Origin: Escherichia phage arall
Length of the DNA stretch: 64,000 bases
Sequence record: MN850584.1
Direction: 5' to 3' (one strand)
The position numbers were made by a program, and so were the translations under genes. Of this stretch, positions 2,779 through 45,809 are shown one piece after another. Positions within the stretch are counted from its first letter, which is position 1. Each line of letters begins with the position of its first letter. The notes beneath the pieces were generated by a model. The model was not told the origin of the DNA. It saw only the letters and a list, made by a program, of their open reading frames with translations, and made no database searches.

Positions 2779-3288
2779 TTAGCGATAGAATTGATGTTCT
2801 TTGTAGCGGTACACTAGAACCATATCTTTTTCCCAGTGTGCTCTTATTGTAGATTTTTTAAAGTATAATGCTCCTTTTGTAATATCTAATGCAATTCGTA
2901 ATTCTGGAAAATGGTTATCGAGATAAAGTAGACGTTCTGCTATAGCTTTAGCGTCTTTCCACTTATCGTGTTCCATAACGTTGAATGTCTTTGTGTAAGA
3001 GAATTGTCCTTTCTGAAACAAAACTTCTTTTATAGTATCAGGGAAATATGAATCTTTAGCCCTATTCAATACTACATTACCAACAGCAGACATACCGCGC
3101 TTTCCTTGATTACGACTTTCTGCATAGATTGCACAAGCTAATAGATTTTCTTTACTATCACGCTTTGTACACTTGTGAACTACTTTAGCAGTTTTTACGT
3201 TTGCAGCTTCGGCTTGCGCCACAACAGGTGTAAATGTAAAAGCAGTTAAGGATAGTAACGCAATTGCGACAAAGGTTTTTATTGACAA
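2779..3288 (-). CDS. Secreted SleB-like cell wall hydrolase
   Basis: N-terminal signal peptide (ALLSLTAFTFTPVVAQA); ACAIYAESRNQ...VGNVVLNRAKD...QKGQFS matches cell-wall hydrolase (Hydrolase_2/SleB) signature. Confidence 0.7.
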   Translation of the reverse strand: MSIKTFVAIALLSLTAFTFTPVVAQAEAANVKTAKVVHKCTKRDSKENLLACAIYAESRNQGKRGMSAVGNVVLNRAKDSYFPDTIKEVLFQKGQFSYTKTFNVMEHDKWKDAKAIAERLLYLDNHFPELRIALDITKGALYFKKSTIRAHWEKDMVLVYRYKEHQFYR

Positions 3289-3380
3289 ACTTGCCTCCTA
3301 TTTTGTTAAACGAACTTTTATTGTAACACAGAAGAGGCTATTTTGCAAGTGGAGGGGGACTATCCCCCTCTTACACTCTG

Positions 3381-3983
3381 TTAGATATTGTAAACCTTTG
3401 TATGAGTTACTACACCATCTTCTACAAAATCAATACGTTCTTGATCCGTGACTAGTGCAGACAACACTTTAAATTTAATTTTTACACGTTCAAAAGCTGG
3501 TTGACCATCTTTAAGATAATTATGTTCGGTTGTCACTGTCTTGTTTACAAAATCAACTTTTGCTTTACCGTTTTCGCGTAGGTGGAATGTTTTTCCTGCT
3601 TTATACACAATTTCAACATTACCTTCGAGAGTAATTCCTTCAAAAAGTTCACCCTCTTCTTCATTTTCTTCGCTTTTGAACAGACGACGAAACTCTTCCA
3701 TATCAAGATAAACAACATCTTCAGAATAACTATCAGTAAGGTATGTCTTACCATCCATTAACCCGAAATATTGCCAGATCGCAGAATAAACATCACTAGT
3801 TGATCCAAGGGTATCTCTGAGTTTAGTTCCACGGATTACTTCATAAACTTCAAAATTGAAACCAGACTGCAAAGCATCAAACAGCACATCACTAACTTCT
3901 AAAGCATAATCTTCATTGTTGTCAATATCTACAAGAAAATTGCCGCTACGAATAAGTTTTTGACCTTCTAAAGTAATACTCAT
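3381..3983 (-). CDS. Hypothetical protein
   Basis: 200 aa ORF in gene block. Confidence 0.55.
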   Translation of the reverse strand: MSITLEGQKLIRSGNFLVDIDNNEDYALEVSDVLFDALQSGFNFEVYEVIRGTKLRDTLGSTSDVYSAIWQYFGLMDGKTYLTDSYSEDVVYLDMEEFRRLFKSEENEEEGELFEGITLEGNVEIVYKAGKTFHLRENGKAKVDFVNKTVTTEHNYLKDGQPAFERVKIKFKVLSALVTDQERIDFVEDGVVTHTKVYNI

Positions 3984-32166: not shown

Positions 32167-33360
32167 ATGGCAGCACCAAAATCATGGGAACAATATAAAG
32201 AAGAGTGTCAACCTATTGCGAATAATAAAGGGATTGAGATCCTAGGATATGTTGAACCGTTTATAGGTTGTGATACGAAAATGATTCTACGCTGTAGGCA
32301 GGAACATGAATGGAAGACTTGTAGTATTAGTAATTTCAAGCACGGTAACAGTTGTCCTATCTGTTCTGGTAAGAAGCCGTTAACATGGGAAACAGAATTG
32401 CCGATCTTGGAAGAGATAGCACAGAAGAAGGGGTATCAGGTGTTAGGGTACGTTGGAGAATGGAAAGGGAATAAAACAAAACTTGATTTGTTGTGCCATT
32501 GTGGGAATAGATGGCAAAGTACAGCAATTCATCAATTTAAAGGCGGTCGAGGTTGTCCACAATGTAGGGGGGAGAATACAAGGAAGGCACTAACAATGTC
32601 CGACGATCAACATATTGCAGATTTCTTTTCTACAGGGAAATTTAAGGAAGGCACTATCTTCACTAACACAGGAACACGGAGTAAAGGATGCAGGCATAGT
32701 ATCTGGATGGTTGAATGTCCTGTTTGCTCTCATGATGAATATGTTCAAGCAGGTGTTTGTGATGGTAAATTTTACTCTGAAGGAAATAACCTTAAACGAG
32801 GGTGCATTCCGTGTCGTTGTGGGAACTATCGGTATACAGAAGACCAGATCACCTATAGGGTAAAAAAGGAAGTAGAAGGGCAAGGGTATGTCTGGGTAGG
32901 TTGGATCGGTAAACCGTCTAGAAGTCACGGTAAGTTTAAATATCTTTGTCTTGTGCATGGGGAACAGACAGGGAGGGCTAATAACTTATTAAGCCTCGGT
33001 CAAGGTTGTCCACAGTGTGCTGGTCATAATCAACAGCAATTATATATTAATATTGTTAAAGATAATGATATTATAGTGGCTCTTAAGTTTGGTATAGCTA
33101 AAGATAGTGATAGGCGATTAAATAGTCAAAATAGTTGTAATATGTTTTTTATGGAGCGTATTTGTTTATATGATTTTAGCACAGTGAAACAATGTAAGGC
33201 TGCTGAAAGAGCTATAAAGAAAAAATTAAAAACTGGTATTTTAACGGAAAGAGAGTTGAAAGACGGTTATACAGAAACAGTAAGTGTTTCTGATTTGGAA
33301 AATCTTCAAGAAATTATTACACAACATGGTGGCAAATTAGTATATAATAAGGAGATGTAA
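32167..33360 (+). CDS. Zinc-ribbon repeat protein with C-terminal T5orf172/GIY-YIG-like domain (putative free-standing homing endonuclease)
   Basis: Four repeated modules each ending in a CPxC zinc ribbon (CPICSG, GCPQCRG, CPVCSH, GCPQCAG); C-terminal YINIVKDNDIIVALKFGIAKD...RR resembles T5orf172 domain. Confidence 0.45.
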   Translation: MAAPKSWEQYKEECQPIANNKGIEILGYVEPFIGCDTKMILRCRQEHEWKTCSISNFKHGNSCPICSGKKPLTWETELPILEEIAQKKGYQVLGYVGEWKGNKTKLDLLCHCGNRWQSTAIHQFKGGRGCPQCRGENTRKALTMSDDQHIADFFSTGKFKEGTIFTNTGTRSKGCRHSIWMVECPVCSHDEYVQAGVCDGKFYSEGNNLKRGCIPCRCGNYRYTEDQITYRVKKEVEGQGYVWVGWIGKPSRSHGKFKYLCLVHGEQTGRANNLLSLGQGCPQCAGHNQQQLYINIVKDNDIIVALKFGIAKDSDRRLNSQNSCNMFFMERICLYDFSTVKQCKAAERAIKKKLKTGILTERELKDGYTETVSVSDLENLQEIITQHGGKLVYNKEM

Positions 33361-33912
33361 ATGCGGATTACTGATAAGTATGTGTTCTTCTTTTCGGCAA
33401 AAGATGAATTTAGCAACTGGTATCTATCATCTTTTATTGAACCTTTAGCTCCCAAGTATAATAATTCTATCACAAGTTCTGTCGAATTTACTTGTGTGGA
33501 ACAATATATGATGTGGAGAAAAGCATGTTTGTTTTATGATTACAATATTGCATCTTCTATTTTAACCGGAGATCTAAGATATACAGGAGAAAAAGAACAA
33601 GCATATTATAAGCGACTAGGTAGATTAGTTAAAGATTATGATGAAGACACCTGGACTTCTTTACGGGAGAAGATTGTCAAACGTGGTTTGTATCTTAAAT
33701 ACACACAAAATGAAGATCTCAAAAATAAACTTATTGCTTACGCAGATAAGGAGTTCGTAGAGGCAAGCCCTTATGATTCTATTTATGGTATCAAAATGGG
33801 GATGTGGGATCGGGACGTGGAAAATAAGGATTGTTGGAAAGGACAAAATCTTTTAGGAAAATGGCATACAGACCTTGCTGTTTATCTAAAAACACAATCT
33901 GATATTTCCTGA
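33361..33912 (+). CDS. NADAR (DUF1768, YbiA-like) domain protein
   Basis: FFFS..DEFSNWY...EQYMMWRKA...EASPYDSIYGIKMG follows the NADAR pattern. Confidence 0.7.
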   Translation: MRITDKYVFFFSAKDEFSNWYLSSFIEPLAPKYNNSITSSVEFTCVEQYMMWRKACLFYDYNIASSILTGDLRYTGEKEQAYYKRLGRLVKDYDEDTWTSLREKIVKRGLYLKYTQNEDLKNKLIAYADKEFVEASPYDSIYGIKMGMWDRDVENKDCWKGQNLLGKWHTDLAVYLKTQSDIS

Positions 33913-34130
33913 TATTTTGAAAATTTTTATTTTTATAAAAAGGGGTGTGGTTTCATGTACGGAAATCCACCCTCTGAATAATATATCCAGAGTAAATATT
34001 ATTCTGTACTCTGTTAATAAAGTATTTAATTTGTTTGTTGGACTATGGTATCTGATCTTTAAAAGGTATACTATCTCTTAACTACTACTTATAACAGAAC
34101 AGTAAAATCATTTTTATAAAAAGGATAAAA

Positions 34131-34330
34131 TTATTTAAAGTTTTTACAGATTTTTGGATACAAATTTTGAAAATGAAAAGTTCAAGTTTGGTCAAAATTA
34201 TTTAAAGTTTTTGTACGTATTTCTATCCAGATTTTGAAAATGAAAACTTCAATTTTTTAAAAATTCCCCAGTTTATTTAAAGTTTTTTTGCCTTTTTCCG
34301 TAGAAAAATCAAAAATGAAAAGTTCAATTT
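34131..34330. repeat. Three iteron-like direct repeats (period about 66-75 bp)
   Basis: Each unit has TTATTTAAAGTTTTT followed by (A)TTTTGAAAATGAAAAGTTCAA-like motif (34164-34185, 34231-34252, 34308-34327). Confidence 0.6.
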
Positions 34331-34350
34331 CGTGTTTTTATGGGTGTGCG

Positions 34351-34412
34351 GATGATAATCATTCTCACTAAGAGAATGAGAATCATTAGCAAATGAGAAT
34401 TTTTCTCATTTA
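34351..34412. promoter_or_regulatory. Nested palindromes including two Fur-box-like sites
   Basis: GATGATAATCATTCTCAC and GAGAATGAGAATCATTAGC resemble the Fur consensus GATAATGATAATCATTATC; plus perfect palindrome AAATGAGAA-TTT-TTCTCATTT. Confidence 0.4.
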
Positions 34413-34429
34413 GAGAATAACGCGCAGGG

Positions 34430-34641
34430 GTGGTGTTTGTCTCGCGCTCCCGTGTCCCCTCGCCATACAATAAGAATAGCATAACCAACAACAAAAGCAA
34501 GCGATTATTTTTATCTTTACATTTCTTTACAAATTTATTTTAGACGAGCTACCGGCGATCAACCTTCCAACCAGTGCCCCCTGGTATGTTAGCCCCGCCT
34601 TTACGCCGTGGGGGTGGCGTTTCCTCTTCTGTATGTAAAAC
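34430..34641 (-). ncRNA. Candidate structured non-coding RNA downstream of a minus-strand promoter
   Basis: GC-rich segment in AT-rich context, no ORF, directly downstream of TTGACA-17-TATACT; speculative. Confidence 0.2.
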
Positions 34642-34670
34642 AGTATAAGCCCGATCCCTGGGCTTGTCAA
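34642..34670 (-). promoter_or_regulatory. Sigma70-like promoter (TTGACA-17-TATACT), minus strand
   Basis: Consensus -35 and near-consensus -10; spacer contains GC hairpin AAGCCC-AGGGATC-GGGCTT. Confidence 0.45.
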
Positions 34671-34672
34671 GA

Positions 34673-34939
34673 TTATTTTTTGTTTTCTTGCCAGGATAGG
34701 ACACCTAACCAAAAATACATGTCGCCCCGCGCCCCTGGCGGGATCTTGCTTTCCCCGCCGCCACTGCAAGCCCATAGATAACCATTTACGAACGTATCAA
34801 AGTGATCTATCTCTTCCACCTTATGATTGCCCAGGTTGAGAACGGTTTCAACCTTTAAGCCCGTTGCGCTTGCTACCTGGTGCACCGTGCCGCCTTGCCA
34901 GCCCAATGAGTGCATGAGGTGTAAAGTAGTATTTGTCAT
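34673..34939 (-). CDS. Hypothetical protein (88 aa) in GC-rich island
   Basis: ATG with AAAGGGCG SD-like sequence; own promoter and 5' hairpin upstream; local GC content higher than surroundings. Confidence 0.5.
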   Translation of the reverse strand: MTNTTLHLMHSLGWQGGTVHQVASATGLKVETVLNLGNHKVEEIDHFDTFVNGYLWACSGGGESKIPPGARGDMYFWLGVLSWQENKK

Positions 34940-34961
34940 GGTATCGCCCTTTCTTTGATGT

Positions 34962-34977
34962 GCGCCCTGGTTGGCGC
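34962..34977 (-). promoter_or_regulatory. 5'-UTR hairpin (GCGCC-AACCAG-GGCGC) of minus-strand gene
   Basis: Inverted repeat between promoter and start codon. Confidence 0.35.
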
Positions 34978-34986
34978 GGTAGAAAG

Positions 34987-35015
34987 ATAATAGCCCTTTC
35001 CTTTATAGATAGCAA
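34987..35015 (-). promoter_or_regulatory. Sigma70-like promoter (TTGCTA-17-TATTAT), minus strand
   Basis: Back-to-back with plus promoter at 35056; shared A-tract (35016-35050) could act as UP element for both. Confidence 0.45.
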
Positions 35016-35055
35016 GCAAAAAAAAAGAAATGAAAAAAAGATTAAAAAAAAGGGG

Positions 35056-35084
35056 TTGACGTTCCTCACCTGGTAGCGTATTAT
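35056..35084 (+). promoter_or_regulatory. Sigma70-like promoter (TTGACG-17-TATTAT), first plus-strand early promoter
   Basis: Preceded by long A-tract. Confidence 0.5.
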
Positions 35085-35211
35085 TCATCTTGTCGAGGGG
35101 GGCGAGGCACAACGACAATAAACAAAAGGAGGGCGCAATGTAGGACGGGCAAAGGTGAGGATCTCCATAATCCACCGTCACAATAACATTACTTATAAAA
35201 GGTTGATAACG

Positions 35212-35307
35212 ATGATCAAGAAAGAAAACAGCTTGACGGTTGGAACGATTAACGCTATCATTCTAGCCGTTCCATTTTGGGTTGTAGTAGCGGTTATTAT
35301 CTTTTAA
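35212..35307 (+). CDS. Small hydrophobic peptide (31 aa)
   Basis: ATG 9 nt after AAGG; single TM-like segment; low confidence. Confidence 0.25.
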   Translation: MIKKENSLTVGTINAIILAVPFWVVVAVIIF

Positions 35308-35315
35308 AAATATTC

Positions 35316-35343
35316 TTGACAACGTTTTTTAATCTGATAAGAT
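35316..35343 (+). promoter_or_regulatory. Sigma70-like promoter (TTGACA-16-TAAGAT)
   Basis: Upstream of hairpin and gene 35396. Confidence 0.45.
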
Positions 35344-35353
35344 GTATCACATA

Positions 35354-35373
35354 GGGCGGCAATAGTGCCGCTC
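35354..35373 (+). promoter_or_regulatory. Conserved 5'-UTR hairpin (family member 1)
   Basis: CATAGG-GCGGCA-ATAG-TGCCGC; 40-nt element identical to copy at 38448-38487. Confidence 0.6.
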
Positions 35374-35395
35374 ATAACAGAAGAGAGAAATAATC

Positions 35396-35668
35396 ATGGC
35401 ATCATATAGCGCATCAATGATCGTAATGGGTATCACTGGTAAACCTATGCGCGGTGGCGGATCTTTCGCTAACATCAATATTGATGGGCGTTTATCCCTG
35501 GATGCAGCGATCACCGTGGCACGGGAAACATTTAAAAAAGAATGTAATTTCAATAAACAAGATTATCTCGGTTTCGCTATTGAAAAAACCGCGCGCTTTG
35601 TTGATTATAAAAGCCCGAAAATGGTTGATACTACACTAAAAGCGCAAGATGTAGCATTTTTGCTTTAA
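35396..35668 (+). CDS. Hypothetical early protein
   Basis: 90 aa ORF, ATG start. Confidence 0.55.
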   Translation: MASYSASMIVMGITGKPMRGGGSFANINIDGRLSLDAAITVARETFKKECNFNKQDYLGFAIEKTARFVDYKSPKMVDTTLKAQDVAFLL

Positions 35669-39435: not shown

Positions 39436-39573
39436 ATGAACGCATCACAGCAGATCGAAAAATTCAACCGCAGCAAGGCGCGTAAAGATTGGAACGAAGA
39501 GATCACCAAAAAAGGCGACAAGCGGAACAAAACAAAGAGAGATCGCAGCACAAAAAGATACTGGAACGAATAA
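39436..39573 (+). CDS. Small highly basic protein (45 aa)
   Basis: AAGAGGA SD; Lys/Arg-rich; followed by terminator. Confidence 0.4.
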   Translation: MNASQQIEKFNRSKARKDWNEEITKKGDKRNKTKRDRSTKRYWNE

Positions 39574-39574
39574 C

Positions 39575-39602
39575 AAAAAAGGGCGCAATAAGCGCCCTTT
39601 TA
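39575..39602 (+). terminator. Rho-independent terminator
   Basis: AAAAAAGGGCGC-AATAA-GCGCCCTTTT. Confidence 0.65.
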
Positions 39603-39612
39603 GCTTATATAG

Positions 39613-43987: not shown

Positions 43988-44001
43988 ATAACATTCCATA
44001 C

Positions 44002-44029
44002 AAGGGCGCACAAAGCGCCCTTTCTTTTT
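44002..44029 (+). terminator. Rho-independent terminator
   Basis: AAGGGCGC-ACAAA-GCGCCCTTTCTTTTT. Confidence 0.65.
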
Positions 44030-44233
44030 ACCTCAATAAAGATGATAGCTTTTACCTATCAAAAACGTTCACCGAAAAAAGTGAATAGATCGCGGTATCG
44101 AGCTAATCAAGGAGCAGATGAATAACCATACCATGAAGATCATAAGGCGCTTACAACGTGTTTTAGACCGCTTATTTTTAATTTCTTCATGCAACTATCT
44201 GGCAAAAACAGCCTTTTTCTTGTCTTTCCTCTT

Positions 44234-44250
44234 AAATGATAATCATTCTT
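44234..44250. promoter_or_regulatory. Fur-box-like site
   Basis: AAATGATAATCATTCTT; core AATGATAATCATT matches Fur consensus. Confidence 0.35.
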
Positions 44251-44290
44251 ATTTATAGCTGATTATTTATGCAATAAACTGCATAATTCA

Positions 44291-44308
44291 ATAATGATAA
44301 TCATTCTT
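44291..44308. promoter_or_regulatory. Fur-box-like site
   Basis: ATAATGATAATCATTCTT. Confidence 0.35.
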
Positions 44309-44329
44309 AACTTATGACCATCTAACCTA

Positions 44330-44640
44330 TAAAATAATAAGTTATCTAACTAAATTAAAACTAATTATCTTACTTTTATTTATAACTTACTGTTACTATC
44401 TCATTGATAACCTTATATTAAACAACAATAACTAATATAAATCATTACTAAGCTAACTATAATCTATCTAACCCTTAAAACTACAACTATAATCTATCGA
44501 ATTGTTGCACAAAGTAACTATTAAATTGTTAGTAACATTGCTAAATAATTAATATCCTATCTATTTATGATCTAATCTTTACCTTCCTATTTATTACCTA
44601 ACTAATCATTTCATACAGTAATCATTGCATACAGTAACTA
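44330..44640. repeat. G-depleted AT-rich repeat tract
   Basis: Plus strand almost lacks G; repeated CTAACT/AACTATAATCTATC (44454-44467, 44486-44499) and AATCATT-CATACAGTAA (44605-44640) motifs. Confidence 0.5.
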
Positions 44641-44676
44641 TGACAAGAAATATAATTCGCAAGCGTATCATTAGCA

Positions 44677-44845
44677 GCCTATGCCGGACACATAGGCGGC
44701 TAATATTAACGCAACTACACACCCCACATAATAACCATCGGTGATGGTTATTATTTGTGTTTATGTAGCTTGCAACAATTGCAAGCGCAACAATATACAT
44801 GGTATATTGTATTCCCTTACATTGTTGCGGTGCGTTAATATTAGC
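44677..44845. repeat. Cluster of perfect palindromes flanked by an 18-bp inverted repeat
   Basis: Hairpin GCCTATG-ccggaca-CATAGGC (44677-44697); flanking IR GGCTAATATTAACGCAAC / GTTGCG(gtgc)GTTAATATTAGC; internal palindromes ATAACCATC-ggt-GATGGTTAT (44731-44751), CTTGCAA-caa-TTGCAAG (44769-44785), CAATATAC-atg-GTATATTG (44791-44809). Confidence 0.6.
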
Positions 44846-45112
44846 TAATGTTTAGAACATTGGCTATAATATAAGCTGCATATAATAAGCTATACAATAA
44901 TAAACATGGTGAATAATGACCCTGATGATCATAATGCGCCACCCTCCAGGGGGCGCTATGTGTACACAAAAAATCTTTCTTGTCAAGAAAATATTAACAC
45001 TATTGCGCAAAATTATTTACAACTGAATAGATGATTTTTCATACTATTGCCCCTATAACATACCTCATTTGTTGAGCCTACTTTCTTAAAAGCGCAATAA
45101 ATCAGAATTATC

Positions 45113-45141
45113 TTGATTTTTAGGGCGTTTTATAGTATAGA
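45113..45141 (+). promoter_or_regulatory. Candidate promoter (TTGATT-17-TATAGA) with Fur box at predicted start site
   Basis: Weak hexamers; Fur-like 19-mer immediately downstream. Confidence 0.25.
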
Positions 45142-45147
45142 AAATAT

Positions 45148-45166
45148 GCAAATGATAATCATTATC
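45148..45166. promoter_or_regulatory. Fur-box-like operator (best match)
   Basis: GCAAATGATAATCATTATC vs Fur consensus GATAATGATAATCATTATC, 17/19. Confidence 0.45.
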
Positions 45167-45330
45167 AGCTATCTTCCACGGGTGGCACTATTTCACGCCA
45201 GATCATTTCATTTGGCAAGGTGTATATAGATGTTTAGACTTGCCAAGCCATTGATTTACTTAGAATTTATCTGTTTTGTTGTGAGTAGTACCTTTCTTGC
45301 TTAGAAAATAATCAAAAGTCTTATAAGTCA

Positions 45331-45365
45331 TTGAATGATAATGCAAATGATAATTATTCTCATTG
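45331..45365 (+). promoter_or_regulatory. Candidate promoter overlapped by tandem GATAAT Fur-like repeats
   Basis: TTGAATGATAATGCAAATGATAATTATTCTCATTG; -35-like TTGAAT, AT-rich -10 region. Confidence 0.35.
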
Positions 45366-45445
45366 ATATTTGAGGGGGACGGTCGGCAGAAATCGGGGGG
45401 CGCTGAAAATCGCGTTAAGCACCTCTCGCAAGCGAGCAGTGTTTT
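45366..45445 (+). ncRNA. Candidate small RNA (about 80 nt) between Fur-like operator and terminator-like hairpin
   Basis: GC-rich segment with no ORF, ending in CACCTCTCGC-AA-GCGAGCAGTG hairpin followed by TTTT (45420-45445); speculative. Confidence 0.25.
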
Positions 45446-45809
45446 GCGGCAAGTTATTGATATTATTGACTTTACGCTTATGAAAAGGGGGTGTGTCGAA
45501 ATAAATCGGGTATACCGGAAAATTTTTGTGGCATAGATATTTATTTGTCTATATTATGTACAAAGGGGTGTATTAAAAATAATAGGTATATATAGAATAA
45601 TTGATAGGGAAATCCTATACTAAATCCTTCATTAATGATGTTCCTATGTTGCTGTTCTTGTAACAGATGAAAAGACGCTATATGATGTGTGGCATGAGAC
45701 GTAAATTTATAAGATGCAAATAATGCTTGCATTGAATAGAAATGTCTATACACTGTGTTTCATAAGATATGCAATATCGCGCATAACAAACTACTAATGA
45801 GAGGTGTAA

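What the first reader, a model, noticed from the sequence alone, without database searches (positions are those of the whole stretch)
34430..35084. GC-rich island with divergent strong promoters, an 88-aa gene and a possible non-coding RNA
Around 34.4-35.0 kb the sequence is clearly more GC-rich than its surroundings. It contains a minus-strand gene with its own TTGCTA-17-TATTAT promoter and 5' hairpin, then a second minus-strand promoter (TTGACA-17-TATACT) reading into an ORF-free GC-rich stretch (34430-34641). The minus-strand promoter at 35015 and the plus-strand promoter at 35056 flank a shared A-tract.
Basis: seen in the sequence. Interest (0 to 1): 0.45.

Follow-up and report, generated by a model that had tools for sequence, protein, structure and literature searches.

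The report
Unannotated structured small RNA gene in phage
The "ORF-free GC-rich stretch" holds a previously unannotated small RNA gene with its own strong promoter and a pseudoknotted fold, conserved in about 230 large phages of enterobacteria and Aeromonas. Its function is unknown.

Summary
The window is a phi92-like E. coli phage (Justusliebigvirus). There is a GC-rich island (48.7% against 37.4%, the richest in the window). There is a real, conserved 88-aa minus-strand gene (phi92 gp224 family) with its own promoter and 5' hairpin. There are divergent promoters around an A-tract, and a near-consensus minus-strand promoter (TTGACA-17-TATACT) that reads into non-coding DNA.

That non-coding DNA is the interesting part. 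It is 70-99% conserved across Stephanstirmvirinae and Vequintavirinae, and its core also occurs in Aeromonas Plateaulakevirus phages. It is almost never annotated.

Forty-seven distinct sequences support an ~90-nt RNA ("RNA1", about 34635->34539, minus strand). It has a hairpin P1, a pseudoknot between the P1 loop and NNGG, a variable bulged hairpin P2 that is often GNRA-capped, and a near-invariant 3' tail AAGGUNNAUCGCCGGUAG. Ten of its 15 pairs show compensatory changes. It matches no Rfam family.

A second conserved promoter and a ~55-nt element ("RNA2") follow. After them come three Fur-box-like palindromes and AT-rich repeats.

The function is not established. My best guess is an early, trans-acting structured sRNA. 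A replication-origin primer role is the main rival.

The parts
35056..35084 (+). Sigma-70-type promoter TTGACG-17-TATTAT, the first of several tandem promoters that start the rightward block of small early-type genes (others at 35233 and 35316)
   Evidence: 10/12. Conserved in phi92 and ESCO13, and with changed hexamers in Kashira.
35016..35052 (.). A-tract (A-rich spacer) between the two divergent promoters
   Evidence: Read directly. TRF reports an A-rich 11-12-bp period. Conserved but variable in length.
34987..35015 (-). Promoter of the 88-aa gene, TTGCTA-17-TATTAT
   Evidence: 9/12. Both hexamers are kept in phi92 and ESCO13. In Kashira the equivalent sites read TTGACT and TATAAT by my reading of the alignment.
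34962..34977 (-). 5'-UTR hairpin GCGCC-AACCAG-GGCGC of the 88-aa gene's mRNA
   Evidence: Identical in phi92 and ESCO13, not kept in Kashira.
34673..34939 (-). 88-aa protein gene (phi92 gp224 family, phrog_19316). All-helical orphan fold with a helix-turn-helix-like N-terminal motif GGTVHQVASATGLKVETVLNL.
   Evidence: ORF. phrog_19316 at E = 4.7e-58. 21 homologues at 41-99% identity with 18 invariant residues. AF2 model pLDDT 93. No Pfam family and no structural neighbour.
34647..34665 (-). Terminator-like hairpin AAGCCC-AGGGATC-GGGCTT followed by ATACTGTTTT. It probably ends the 88-aa gene's mRNA and lies inside the spacer of the RNA1 promoter.
   Evidence: Spacer hairpins with different sequences, several GNRA-capped, are seen in phiTE, Kashira, FBKp34, L020 and L037 (read).
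34642..34670 (-). RNA1 promoter TTGACA-17-TATACT
   Evidence: 11/12. Of 40 distinct relatives, 39 keep >=9/12, a 17-18 bp spacer and a -10 end lying 8-14 nt before the model match.
34539..34635 (-). RNA1, a structured small RNA. The 5' end is inferred at ~34635. The covariance-model match is 34627->34539. The 3' end is not defined in this phage.
   Evidence: cmsearch 100.6 bits, E = 7e-32, single copy in the window. Covariation.
34604..34619 (-). RNA1 hairpin P1 (CGCC / GGCG) with the loop ACCCCCAC
   Evidence: 97.9% of cells paired. Two pairs have compensatory changes, only in the Aeromonas-type sequences.
34593..34612 (-). RNA1 pseudoknot. P1-loop nucleotides (34612-34609) pair with GGGG (34596-34593), which lies just 5' of the invariant GGCU.
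   Evidence: Pair 18-33 is C-G in 35 sequences and A-U in 10. Pair 19-32 is A-U, U-A, C-G or G-C in the minority types. There is one exception, L316.
34567..34589 (-). RNA1 hairpin P2, with a one-nucleotide bulge. It varies in length among relatives and is often closed by a GNRA loop.
   Evidence: 6 of 7 pairs show changes on both sides. P2-segment length 15-25 nt.
34549..34566 (-). RNA1 near-invariant 3' tail AAGGUUGAUCGCCGGUAG (consensus AAGGUNNAUCGCCGGUAG)
   Evidence: The tail was part of the search pattern. It is equally conserved in the BLAST-found phage records aligned.
34514..34531 (-). Two copies of TGTAAAGA upstream of the RNA2 promoter. A related ATGTAAGGATGCTTGC precedes the RNA1 promoter of Aeromonas phages.
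   Evidence: It is not a general motif of the window.
34473..34500 (-). RNA2 promoter TTGCTT-16-TATTCT. Relatives have TTGATC or CTTGCA paired with TATTAT or TATATT.
   Evidence: Alignments. Coordinates. It falls below the threshold of the scan.
34413..34468 (-). RNA2, a second conserved element. It has a closing stem AUGGCG / CGUUAU and the invariant GAGACAAACACC (34443-34432).
   Evidence: 93.8% of cells paired against 34-56% when slid, and 3 pairs with changes on both sides.
34353..34408 (.). Three Fur-box-like palindromes (TGATAATCATTCTCA, TGAGAATCATTAGCA, TGAGAATTTTTCTCA). Relatives carry 2-5 copies.
   Evidence: 11 sites in the window against 2.2 expected. (19-mer Fur consensus with <=3 mismatches: 5 against 0.04). 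Alignments.
34127..34331 (.). Three ~67-bp AT-rich direct repeats (21% G+C) downstream of the leftward transcription units
   Evidence: GC content.

Best explanation
Window 34635->34539 (minus strand) is an independent, unannotated gene for a structured small RNA, RNA1. It is read by host sigma-70 RNA polymerase from a near-consensus promoter of the same class as the phage's early promoters. It is therefore probably made from the first minutes of infection.

The RNA folds into a compact core:
- hairpin P1;
- an H-type pseudoknot between the P1 loop (CCNN) and NNGG, reached through an A-rich linker;
- a bulged hairpin P2 of variable length;
- a near-invariant ~18-nt 3' segment (AAGGUNNAUCGCCGGUAG) for which no conserved pairing partner was found within the RNA.

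I infer that the fold serves to present this invariant segment, together with the invariant GGCU junction, to a partner that is conserved across the whole phage group. That partner would be a protein or RNA of the phage or of gamma-proteobacterial hosts. On this reading RNA1 acts in trans, as a regulator, a decoy or the RNA subunit of an RNP.

A second, weaker promoter follows, with a ~55-nt conserved element (RNA2, ~34466->34413). After it come Fur-box-like palindromes, which may stop or regulate leftward transcription.

The 'GC-rich island' is simply the sum of the RNA helices and the conserved 88-aa gene (gp224 family), which is transcribed in the same direction just upstream.

Shown: conservation, promoter, covariation, lack of coding potential, no Rfam match.
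Inferred: transcription, early timing, the 5' end, action in trans.
Unknown: the partner, the phenotype and the 3' end.

The confidence given (0.75) is for 'a real, promoter-driven structured RNA gene'. For the further step 'acts in trans on a conserved partner' I would give about 0.4.
For: Identity of the window: phi92-like phage, 96-98% identical to many Justusliebigvirus records.

Conservation: the non-coding stretch 34400-34672 matches 236 phage records at 69-99% identity. These include Phapecoctavirus, Seunavirus, Certrevirus, Mydovirus, Henunavirus and unclassified Serratia and Klebsiella phages, and nearly all carry no annotation at the match. The core also occurs in Aeromonas Plateaulakevirus phages.

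Promoter: kept in 39 of 40 distinct upstream regions at a fixed distance.

Structure, on 47 distinct sequences (A8): 82.6% of cells are paired, against 25-46% when the 3' partners are slid. Ten of 15 pairs have changes on both sides. No shuffle out of 500 reaches the observed covariation score. The MAFFT alignment, which was not fitted to the model, gives the same picture.

Rival pairings: two alternatives that use the tail's CGCC have no compensatory change, and they break exactly where sequences vary.

Strand: G-U pairs are present (for example 8 at the base of P2), and the promoter direction fixes the minus strand.

Non-coding: P2-segment length varies from 15 to 25 nt in steps that are not multiples of three.

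Independent gene: in Aeromonas phage 2L372D the motif sits in a 310-bp gap, antisense to both flanking genes. It has its own TTGCTT-17-TATAAT promoter and an intrinsic terminator about 30 nt after the motif. No palindromes or AT-rich repeats were seen in the flanks read. Some Aeromonas variants carry three extra hairpins inserted between P1 and the pseudoknot strand, a pattern typical of structured RNAs.

Copy number and known families: one copy in the window. No Rfam family matches the window or five relatives. No tRNA or tmRNA is found.
Against: No transcript data were available, so expression, the 5' end and above all the 3' end are inferred. In the enterobacterial phages no intrinsic terminator follows RNA1. 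It may therefore be the 5' part of a longer transcript that runs into RNA2 and the palindromes.

The single-sequence fold is no more stable than shuffles (z = 0.0 to 0.2).

P1 covariation rests on only two Aeromonas-type sequences. One sequence (L316) breaks two pseudoknot pairs. The model-based alignment leans towards the structure it was built from.

Many of the 47 sequences were retrieved with a pattern that includes the tail, so the tail's invariance is partly by construction. The BLAST-retrieved records show the same conservation.

No target was found. There is no complementary site in the 64-kb window. Complementarity to E. coli 16S, 23S and 5S rRNA and tRNA-Glu is no better than for shuffled tails. 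Action in trans is therefore an inference from anatomy, not a result.
Confidence: 0.75

Rival explanations
1. The leftward promoters and their transcripts belong to a transcription-activated origin of DNA replication. RNA1 and RNA2 would be primer or activator transcripts that run into the palindromes and the AT-rich ~67-bp repeats, which would act as the unwinding element. This would resemble T4 oriF/oriG, the T7 primary origin or ColE1 RNA II.
For: Two tandem promoters, three in KB57- and SSE121-type phages, all point at a 21%-G+C region with three ~67-bp direct repeats. No protein gene lies downstream of them before the convergent NADAR gene ends at 33912. RNA1 has no terminator in the enterobacterial phages. 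Conserved palindromes could bind an initiator. The whole ~760-bp block is conserved in order.
Against: RNA1 also occurs in Aeromonas phages without RNA2. There no palindromes or AT-rich repeats were seen in the flanks read, and RNA1 is bounded by its own terminator. Its conservation therefore does not depend on the putative origin. The compensatory changes concern a compact fold with GNRA loops and a pseudoknot, which is more than a primer needs. A second, larger AT-rich ORF-poor region with the same palindromes lies at 44.0-45.5 kb and is at least as good an origin candidate. There is no GC-skew switch at 34 kb.
Confidence: 0.12
2. RNA1 is a cis-acting leader, riboswitch- or attenuator-like. 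Its fold would decide whether transcription continues into RNA2, the palindromes and the repeats.
For: The H-type pseudoknot with an A-rich linker and highly conserved junction nucleotides resembles small riboswitch aptamers. The conserved CGCC in the tail could compete with the CGCC of P1 for GGCG. No terminator separates RNA1 from what follows in this phage.
Against: Nothing that could be regulated lies downstream, since there is no coding gene. The competing pairings show no covariation and fail in the variable sequences. RNA2 has its own promoter. In Aeromonas phages a constitutive-looking terminator follows directly. No riboswitch family is matched.
Confidence: 0.08
3. The conservation is at the DNA level only, for example protein-binding sites, promoters acting as insulators against read-through from the rightward operon, or a packaging signal. 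The apparent RNA structure would then be incidental.
For: The tail, the TGTAAAGA repeats and the palindromes are conserved as sequence rather than as pairs. The thermodynamic z-score is about 0.
Against: Ten of 15 pairs keep pairing through changes on both sides, and the hairpin length varies while pairing is kept. G-U pairs would be A-C mismatches on the other strand. A near-consensus promoter sits at a fixed distance in 39 of 40 relatives.
Confidence: 0.04
4. The stretch encodes a small protein, for example the mechanical 82-aa or 51-aa minus-strand ORFs.
For: ORFs 34527-34775 (82 aa) and 34549-34704 (51 aa) exist on the minus strand. A few phage records annotate 'hypothetical protein' over the match.
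Against: Indels that are not multiples of three occur throughout the family. The 82-aa ORF overlaps the end of the conserved gp224 gene in another frame. Variation follows base-pairing, not codons. Most records annotate nothing here.
Confidence: 0.01

Closest known systems
Small non-coding RNAs of virulent phages made early from host-type promoters (for example T4 RNAs C and D, or the sRNAs seen in transcriptomes of Pseudomonas phages such as PAK_P3 and phiKZ). These examples are from my own knowledge. The transcriptome papers PMC10914365 and PMC8244752 were listed but were not read.
   Same: A short, promoter-driven, non-coding transcript of a lytic phage, placed among or next to early genes, with an unknown or poorly known role.
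   Different: No sequence or structural relationship. RNA1 has comparative support for a defined pseudoknotted fold across three phage lineages, which most of those sRNAs lack. Unlike them, RNA1 has no expression data.
Type III antitoxin RNAs and the pseudo-ToxI decoy of Pectobacterium phage phiTE (PMC3475682)
   Same: phiTE carries RNA1, and the same phage is the textbook case of a phage non-coding RNA that neutralises a host defence protein. ToxI units also fold as pseudoknots (my own knowledge). A decoy role is one plausible reading of RNA1.
   Different: [quoted passage not shown] RNA1 is a single copy, not a tandem 36-nt repeat. No ToxI-like sequence occurs in the locus. No toxin gene is adjacent.
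H-type pseudoknot aptamers and ribozymes with an A-rich linker (preQ1 and SAM-II riboswitches, pistol ribozyme). This is a resemblance from memory.
   Same: A hairpin whose loop pairs with a downstream segment reached through an A-rich linker. Conserved junction nucleotides and variable peripheral hairpins closed by GNRA loops.
   Different: No covariance-model match even at E <= 10. RNA1 is not upstream of a gene, and no cleavage-site or ligand-pocket consensus is recognisable. I tested the resemblance only with Rfam.
Primer or activator transcripts of replication origins (T4 oriF/oriG, T7 phi1.1A/B, ColE1 RNA II). Named from my own knowledge.
   Same: Tandem strong promoters reading into an AT-rich, repeat-bearing non-coding region.
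   Different: RNA1 also exists without any such region (Aeromonas phages). No origin function has been mapped in this phage group.
Fur boxes of Enterobacteria (19-bp GATAATGATAATCATTATC, or the 7-1-7 form TGATAATnATTATCA). The consensus is from my own knowledge.
   Same: The palindromes next to RNA2 and at 44-45 kb match the consensus closely. One copy at 45153 and the 4MG copy are perfect 7-1-7 sites.
   Different: Binding by Fur is untested. The family consensus here is TGAGAATnATTCTCA, with G/C at the fourth position of each half-site. They could bind a phage protein or act as AT-rich hairpins.

Membership tests
Any described RNA family (Rfam 15, 4227 models) | Covariance-model match at or near the gathering score | tested here: not met
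   Window 30-40 kb at E <= 1: nothing in the region. Window 34380-34700 at E <= 10: only ohsC at 16 bits against a gathering score of 50. Five relatives including the Aeromonas phages: nothing at the locus.
tRNA / tmRNA | Cloverleaf or tmRNA detected by ARAGORN | tested here: not met
   No genes in the whole window.
Independent sRNA gene | Own promoter, conserved in position | tested here: met
   11/12 match in the window. 39 of 40 relatives keep >=9/12, a 17-18 bp spacer and a fixed distance.
Independent sRNA gene | Defined 3' end (intrinsic terminator) | tested here: inconclusive
   No terminator follows RNA1 in the window. A terminator is present about 30 nt after the motif in Aeromonas phage 2L372D.
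Independent sRNA gene | Detected transcript | not testable with these tools
   No transcriptome data are accessible, and no paper on transcription in this phage group was found.
Structured RNA | Helices kept by compensatory changes | tested here: met
   P2 has 6 of 7 pairs, the pseudoknot 2 of 4 and P1 2 of 4 with changes on both sides. 82.6% of cells are paired, against <=46% when slid. The result is independent of model fitting.
Type III antitoxin / pseudo-ToxI | Tandem ~36-nt repeats similar to ToxI, next to or mimicking a toxIN locus | tested here: not met
   Single copy. No ToxI-like sequence within 3 mismatches. Pseudo-ToxI lies elsewhere in phiTE.
Riboswitch / cis-regulatory leader | Lies in the 5' UTR of a regulated gene | tested here: not met
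   No conserved ORF lies downstream on the minus strand before the convergent gene end at 33912. In Aeromonas phages the flanking genes are on the other strand.
Transcription-primed replication origin | Promoter(s) reading into an AT-rich unwinding element with repeats | tested here: met
   Met in the window and in the enterobacterial relatives.
Transcription-primed replication origin | The association holds wherever the RNA occurs, and initiation maps there | tested here: not met
   The Aeromonas phages have RNA1 without the repeats and palindromes. Initiation itself cannot be tested here.
Fur box | Match to the 19-bp or 7-1-7 consensus, in excess over chance | tested here: met
   7-1-7 class with <=2 mismatches: 11 sites against 2.2 +/- 1.6 expected. 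19-mer with <=3 mismatches: 5 against 0.04.
Fur box | Bound by Fur-Fe2+ and iron-dependent in effect | not testable with these tools
   Needs EMSA, ChIP or a reporter assay.
Helix-turn-helix DNA-binding protein (for the 88-aa gp224) | Match to an HTH family or fold | tested here: not met

The most novel reading that the evidence does not exclude
RNA1 is the founding member of a new class of phage functional RNA. Its pseudoknotted core and invariant AAGGUNNAUCGCCGGUAG segment would form a specific binding site for a conserved protein or small molecule, or possibly a catalytic site. On this reading it would be an anti-defence decoy, the RNA subunit of a phage RNP, or an aptamer or ribozyme that these large myoviruses need on hosts from Escherichia to Aeromonas. 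The neighbouring Fur-box-like arrays would tie leftward transcription, or host iron regulation, to infection.
Probability: 0.3. Interest if true: 0.8.

Novelty: new variant of a known kind. Interest (0 to 1): 0.62.

Why it matters
Phi92-, phAPEC8-, PVP-SE1- and phiTE-type phages are widely isolated, and my understanding is that they are often proposed for therapy. Yet about 230 deposited genomes carry this locus with essentially no annotation.

A compact RNA whose fold is held by compensatory changes, and whose 18-nt tail is almost unchanged from Escherichia phages to Aeromonas phages, implies a strongly selected molecular interaction that nobody has described.

The locus gives a concrete and easily tested object: an ~90-nt RNA, a defined promoter and defined pairs to mutate. 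It could serve to study what structured RNAs do for virulent phages, a field with very few worked examples.

The locus also flags two other features as conserved parts of the early control region of these phages: a linked orphan protein (gp224) and arrays of Fur-box-like sites.

Tried and rejected
- Known RNA families: three Rfam scans, including permissive ones on the short region and on relatives, found nothing. ARAGORN found nothing.
- Pseudo-ToxI link, because phiTE carries the motif: rejected. The escape locus is at 106.7 kb and there is no ToxI-like sequence here.
- Host origin of the GC-rich island: RNA1 has no match in 5,426 E. coli genomes even at E <= 10.
- Target search for the invariant tail: no complementary site in the window. 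Complementarity to E. coli 16S, 23S and 5S rRNA and tRNA-Glu is not above shuffled controls. An anti-Shine-Dalgarno mimic was considered and dropped, because the positions that would matter are the variable ones.
- Alternative helices, namely the P1 3' strand or the linker GGCG pairing with the tail CGCC (proposed by RNAalifold and by the MFE fold): no covariation, and both break where sequences vary.
- A closing helix between the leader and the 3' flank is seen in the Aeromonas and 4MG sequences. It is not conserved, and in most phages it lies upstream of the inferred start.
- Thermodynamic stability as evidence: z-scores are about 0.
This wasted two scans.
- TGTAAAGA as a general promoter element of the phage: it does not recur in the window.
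- rV5 itself (88-138 kb, which holds its early region and a 2.6-kb non-coding gap): no RNA1. The rest of that genome was not searched.
- Literature: five searches found no description of this RNA. The catalogue of 8,495 anonymous candidate phage RNAs (PMC10690425) could contain it, but its supplementary files are not held.
Full report
**What the window is.** Window 34000-35400 is 96-98% identical to many Escherichia phages of the genus Justusliebigvirus (phi92, alia, Nernie and others). In phi92 the finding lies between gp223 and gp225. The only annotated feature inside it is the hypothetical protein gp224. To the left, a long block of plus-strand genes ends at 33912 with a CapR/T5orf172-type endonuclease gene and a NADAR-domain gene. 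To the right, from 35056, a block of small plus-strand genes begins, each preceded by sigma-70-type promoters.

**Check of the observation.**
- Window 34430-35000 has 48.7% G+C, against a window mean of 37.4% (sd 2.8% for windows of that size). That is the top 0.08%. The GC-richest 200 bp of the whole window starts at 34721, and the region directly to the left is among the AT-richest, at 21%.
- The promoter scan lists TTGACA-17-TATACT (34670->34642, minus, 11/12), TTGCTA-17-TATTAT (35015->34987, minus) and TTGACG-17-TATTAT (35056->35084, plus), on either side of the A-tract.
- The hairpin GCGCC-AACCAG-GGCGC lies at 34977-34962, in the leader of the 88-aa gene.
- Promoter-like hits are not by themselves in excess (9 against 5.1 +/- 1.9). 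Their conservation is what counts, as shown below.

**The 88-aa gene.** ORF 34673-34939 (minus) matches phrog_19316 over its full length (E = 4.7e-58). It has 21 homologues down to 41% identity, on ~140-150-kb phage contigs and in Serratia phage Kashira, with 18 invariant residues. Most of these lie in the N-terminal stretch T-LHLMHSLGWQGGTVHQVASATGLKVETVLNL. phiTE_079 is a homologue whose annotated start is probably about 50 codons too far upstream.

**The non-coding stretch is the conserved part.** BLAST of 34400-34672 finds 236 phage records, 159 of them covering at least 80% of the query. The hits extend far beyond the genus: Phapecoctavirus (~91%), Klebsiella FBKp34 (77%), Salmonella SSE121 (75%), Serratia Kashira (73%), Erwinia pEp_SNUABM_01 (69%), and the core alone in phiTE, KB57, CR9 and Hena1 (76-86%). 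Most records list no annotated feature under the match, and the rest mostly only 'hypothetical protein'.

An alignment of eleven of these phages, read on the minus strand, shows the following order:
1. a promoter;
2. a conserved ~90-nt segment (RNA1);
3. a TGTAAAGA repeat;
4. a second promoter;
5. a conserved ~55-nt segment with the invariant GAGACAAACACC (RNA2);
6. an invariant palindrome AATGAGAATGATTCTCATT.

**RNA1: collecting members.** Scans of IMG/VR and of metagenome contigs used patterns built on the most conserved 18-nt segment (the metagenome pattern also required the upstream GGCU junction). The hits were filtered by profile and covariance-model searches. With the phage records, this gave 47 distinct sequences. 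They come from ~140-153-kb contigs of the rV5/phi92 type and from Aeromonas phages of the genus Plateaulakevirus (2L372D, 2L372X, 4L372D, 4L372XY). The window holds exactly one copy, at 34627->34539 (100.6 bits).

**RNA1: promoter.** Of 40 distinct upstream regions, 39 have a sigma-70 match of at least 9/12 with a 17-18-bp spacer. The -10 hexamer ends 8-14 nt before the model match. The 5' end is therefore inferred at about 34635.

**RNA1: structure.** The fold I propose is as follows:
- a purine-rich leader;
- P1 (CGCC/GGCG) with a 7-8-nt loop;
- an A-rich linker;
- a pseudoknot in which four loop nucleotides pair with NNGG, just 5' of an invariant GGCU;
- P2, a hairpin with a one-nucleotide bulge and a variable upper part (the segment between the GGCU junction and the tail is 15-25 nt), often closed by GAAA, GCAA, GAAG or GGAG;
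- the tail AAGGUNNAUCGCCGGUAG.

On the model-based alignment A8, 82.6% of cells are standard pairs, against 25-46% when the 3' partners are slid by 1-3 columns. Ten of 15 pairs show changes on both sides. No shuffle out of 500 reaches the observed covariation score or the observed count of doubly changed cells. The MAFFT alignment A3, which was not fitted to any structure, gives the same result (80.7% paired, 8 pairs with changes on both sides).

Support differs by helix:
- P2 is the best supported, with 6 of 7 pairs.
- In the pseudoknot, pair 18-33 is C-G in 35 sequences and A-U in 10. Pair 19-32 is A-U, U-A, C-G or G-C in the minority types and unpaired (A.G) in the majority type. One sequence (L316) breaks two pseudoknot pairs.
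- P1 varies only in the two Aeromonas-type sequences, where it is kept as GGAC/GUCU and AGAC/GUCU.

RNAalifold and the single-sequence MFE fold propose instead that GGCG pairs with the CGCC of the tail. Neither helix has a compensatory change, and each breaks in exactly the sequences that differ. I therefore treat the tail as unpaired or engaged in tertiary contacts. Some Aeromonas variants carry three extra hairpins between P1 and the pseudoknot strand, with the loop CCAA still matching UUGG.

Thermodynamic z-scores are about zero. The evidence is comparative, not energetic.

**RNA1 is its own gene.** In Aeromonas phage 2L372D the motif sits in a 310-bp gap between two genes of the opposite strand. 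It has a TTGCTT-17-TATAAT promoter and a hairpin-plus-T-run terminator about 30 nt after the motif. RNA2 is absent, and no palindromes or AT-rich repeats were seen in the flanks I read. In the window, RNA1 likewise runs against the direction of both large flanking gene blocks.

In the enterobacterial phages I found no terminator after RNA1. Its 3' end may be made by processing, or the transcript may continue into RNA2 and end at the palindromes.

A terminator-like hairpin for the upstream 88-aa gene lies inside the RNA1 promoter spacer (34665-34647). Relatives have hairpins of different sequence at the same place.

**RNA2 and what follows.** The second promoter (TTGCTT-16-TATTCT, 34500-34473) is weaker than the first. 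The element that follows has a closing stem AUGGCG/CGUUAU. In that stem 93.8% of cells pair, against 34-56% when slid, and three pairs show changes on both sides. It also has many G-U pairs, which are strand-specific. Its interior is not resolved. I regard RNA2 as probable but less secure than RNA1.

Below it lie three palindromes of the class TGAKAATnATTMTCA (34353-34408). Relatives have two to five copies, and in phage 4MG one copy is TGATAATGATTATCA, a perfect 7-1-7 Fur box. In the window the class occurs 11 times against 2.2 expected. The 19-bp Fur consensus with at most three mismatches occurs 5 times against 0.04 expected. The remaining copies cluster in a second AT-rich, ORF-poor region at 44.0-45.5 kb. 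Whether Fur or a phage protein binds them is untested.

Further left are three ~67-bp direct repeats at 21% G+C.

**Mechanism.** Five things are shown:
1. a conserved promoter of the phage's early, host-polymerase class;
2. a fold maintained by selection;
3. an invariant ~18-nt segment with no conserved partner inside the RNA;
4. independence from the neighbouring elements in one lineage;
5. no coding potential.

From this I infer an early, stable, trans-acting RNA whose fold presents the invariant segment to a conserved partner. I could not identify that partner. The window holds no complementary site, and E. coli rRNAs and tRNA-Glu are no better matched than by shuffled tails.

The main rival is a role in a transcription-activated replication origin. 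That fits the local architecture here. It does not fit the Aeromonas loci, and it competes with a better-looking candidate region at 44-45 kb. A cis-regulatory leader is unlikely because nothing regulated lies downstream.

**Comparison with what is known.** No Rfam family matches the window or the relatives, and there is no tRNA or tmRNA. The pseudo-ToxI RNA of phiTE is a different locus. Five literature searches found no description. A 2023 catalogue of 8,495 anonymous candidate structured RNAs from IMG/VR (PMC10690425) may include it, but I could not check that.

I therefore class it as a new family within a known kind, the structured small RNAs of virulent phages. The RNA was not detected in the 88-138-kb part of rV5 itself.

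**Verdict.** Two corrections apply: there are two transcription units, and there is no sign of foreign origin. Function remains open.

Noticed in passing
window 34353-34408; also 44237-44251, 44295-44309, 45153-45167, 45348-45362: Fur-box-like palindromes (TGAKAATnATTMTCA) occur in two clusters: 11 sites against 2.2 expected, and 5 matches to the 19-bp Fur consensus against 0.04 expected. The site at 45153 is a perfect 7-1-7 Fur box. Relatives keep 2-5 copies next to RNA2.
   Followed up: partly
window ~44000-45540: A second large, ORF-poor, very AT-rich region, holding the 200-bp GC minimum of the window (19.5% at 44241). It has short direct repeats, hairpins, promoter-like sites and four of the palindromes. 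It is a candidate replication origin or regulatory hub.
   Followed up: no
window 34127-34331: Three ~67-bp direct repeats at 21% G+C, each containing TTTAAAGTTTTT and GAAAATGAAAAGTTCAA. Phage alia annotates the equivalent region only as 'repeat_region'.
   Followed up: partly
window 35126-35143: A strong Shine-Dalgarno sequence (AAGGAGGG) is followed by ATG TAG, a start-stop mini-ORF in the leader of the rightward early transcript. phi92 has a 6-codon ORF at the same place.
   Followed up: no
window 32167-33912: The two genes to the left are a CapR/T5orf172-type zinc-ribbon endonuclease (397 aa, PHROG 'endonuclease') and a NADAR-domain protein (183 aa). NADAR domains are, to my knowledge, linked to reversal of ADP-ribosylation.
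   Followed up: no
L001 (phi92) ~3100-3450: phi92 carries an insertion of roughly 350 bp relative to the window in the palindrome region, with additional copies of the Fur-box-like palindrome.
   Followed up: no
L013, L057, L061 (Aeromonas phages 4L372XY, 4L372D): This RNA1 variant has three extra hairpins inserted between P1 and the pseudoknot strand. The covariance model misaligns its P1.
   Followed up: partly
L003 1662-2093 (phiTE_079): The annotated 143-aa ORF is a gp224 homologue only from about residue 51 onward, so the annotated start is probably too far upstream.
   Followed up: partly
phage records MG065645 and MG065689 ('Campylobacter phage A145 / A110a'): MG065645 (A145) is ~98% identical to this E. 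coli phage at the locus. MG065689 (A110a) matches the same locus. Both are ~146 kb. The host label looks doubtful.
   Followed up: no
L336 16015-18618 (rV5 104.0-106.6 kb): rV5 has a 2.6-kb stretch without annotated genes where its rightward and leftward gene blocks meet. RNA1 is not detected there (best hit E = 0.57).
   Followed up: no
window 39561-39606: A weak Rfam hit to STnc320 (25 bits, E = 0.33). It is simply a GC-rich terminator hairpin.
   Followed up: no
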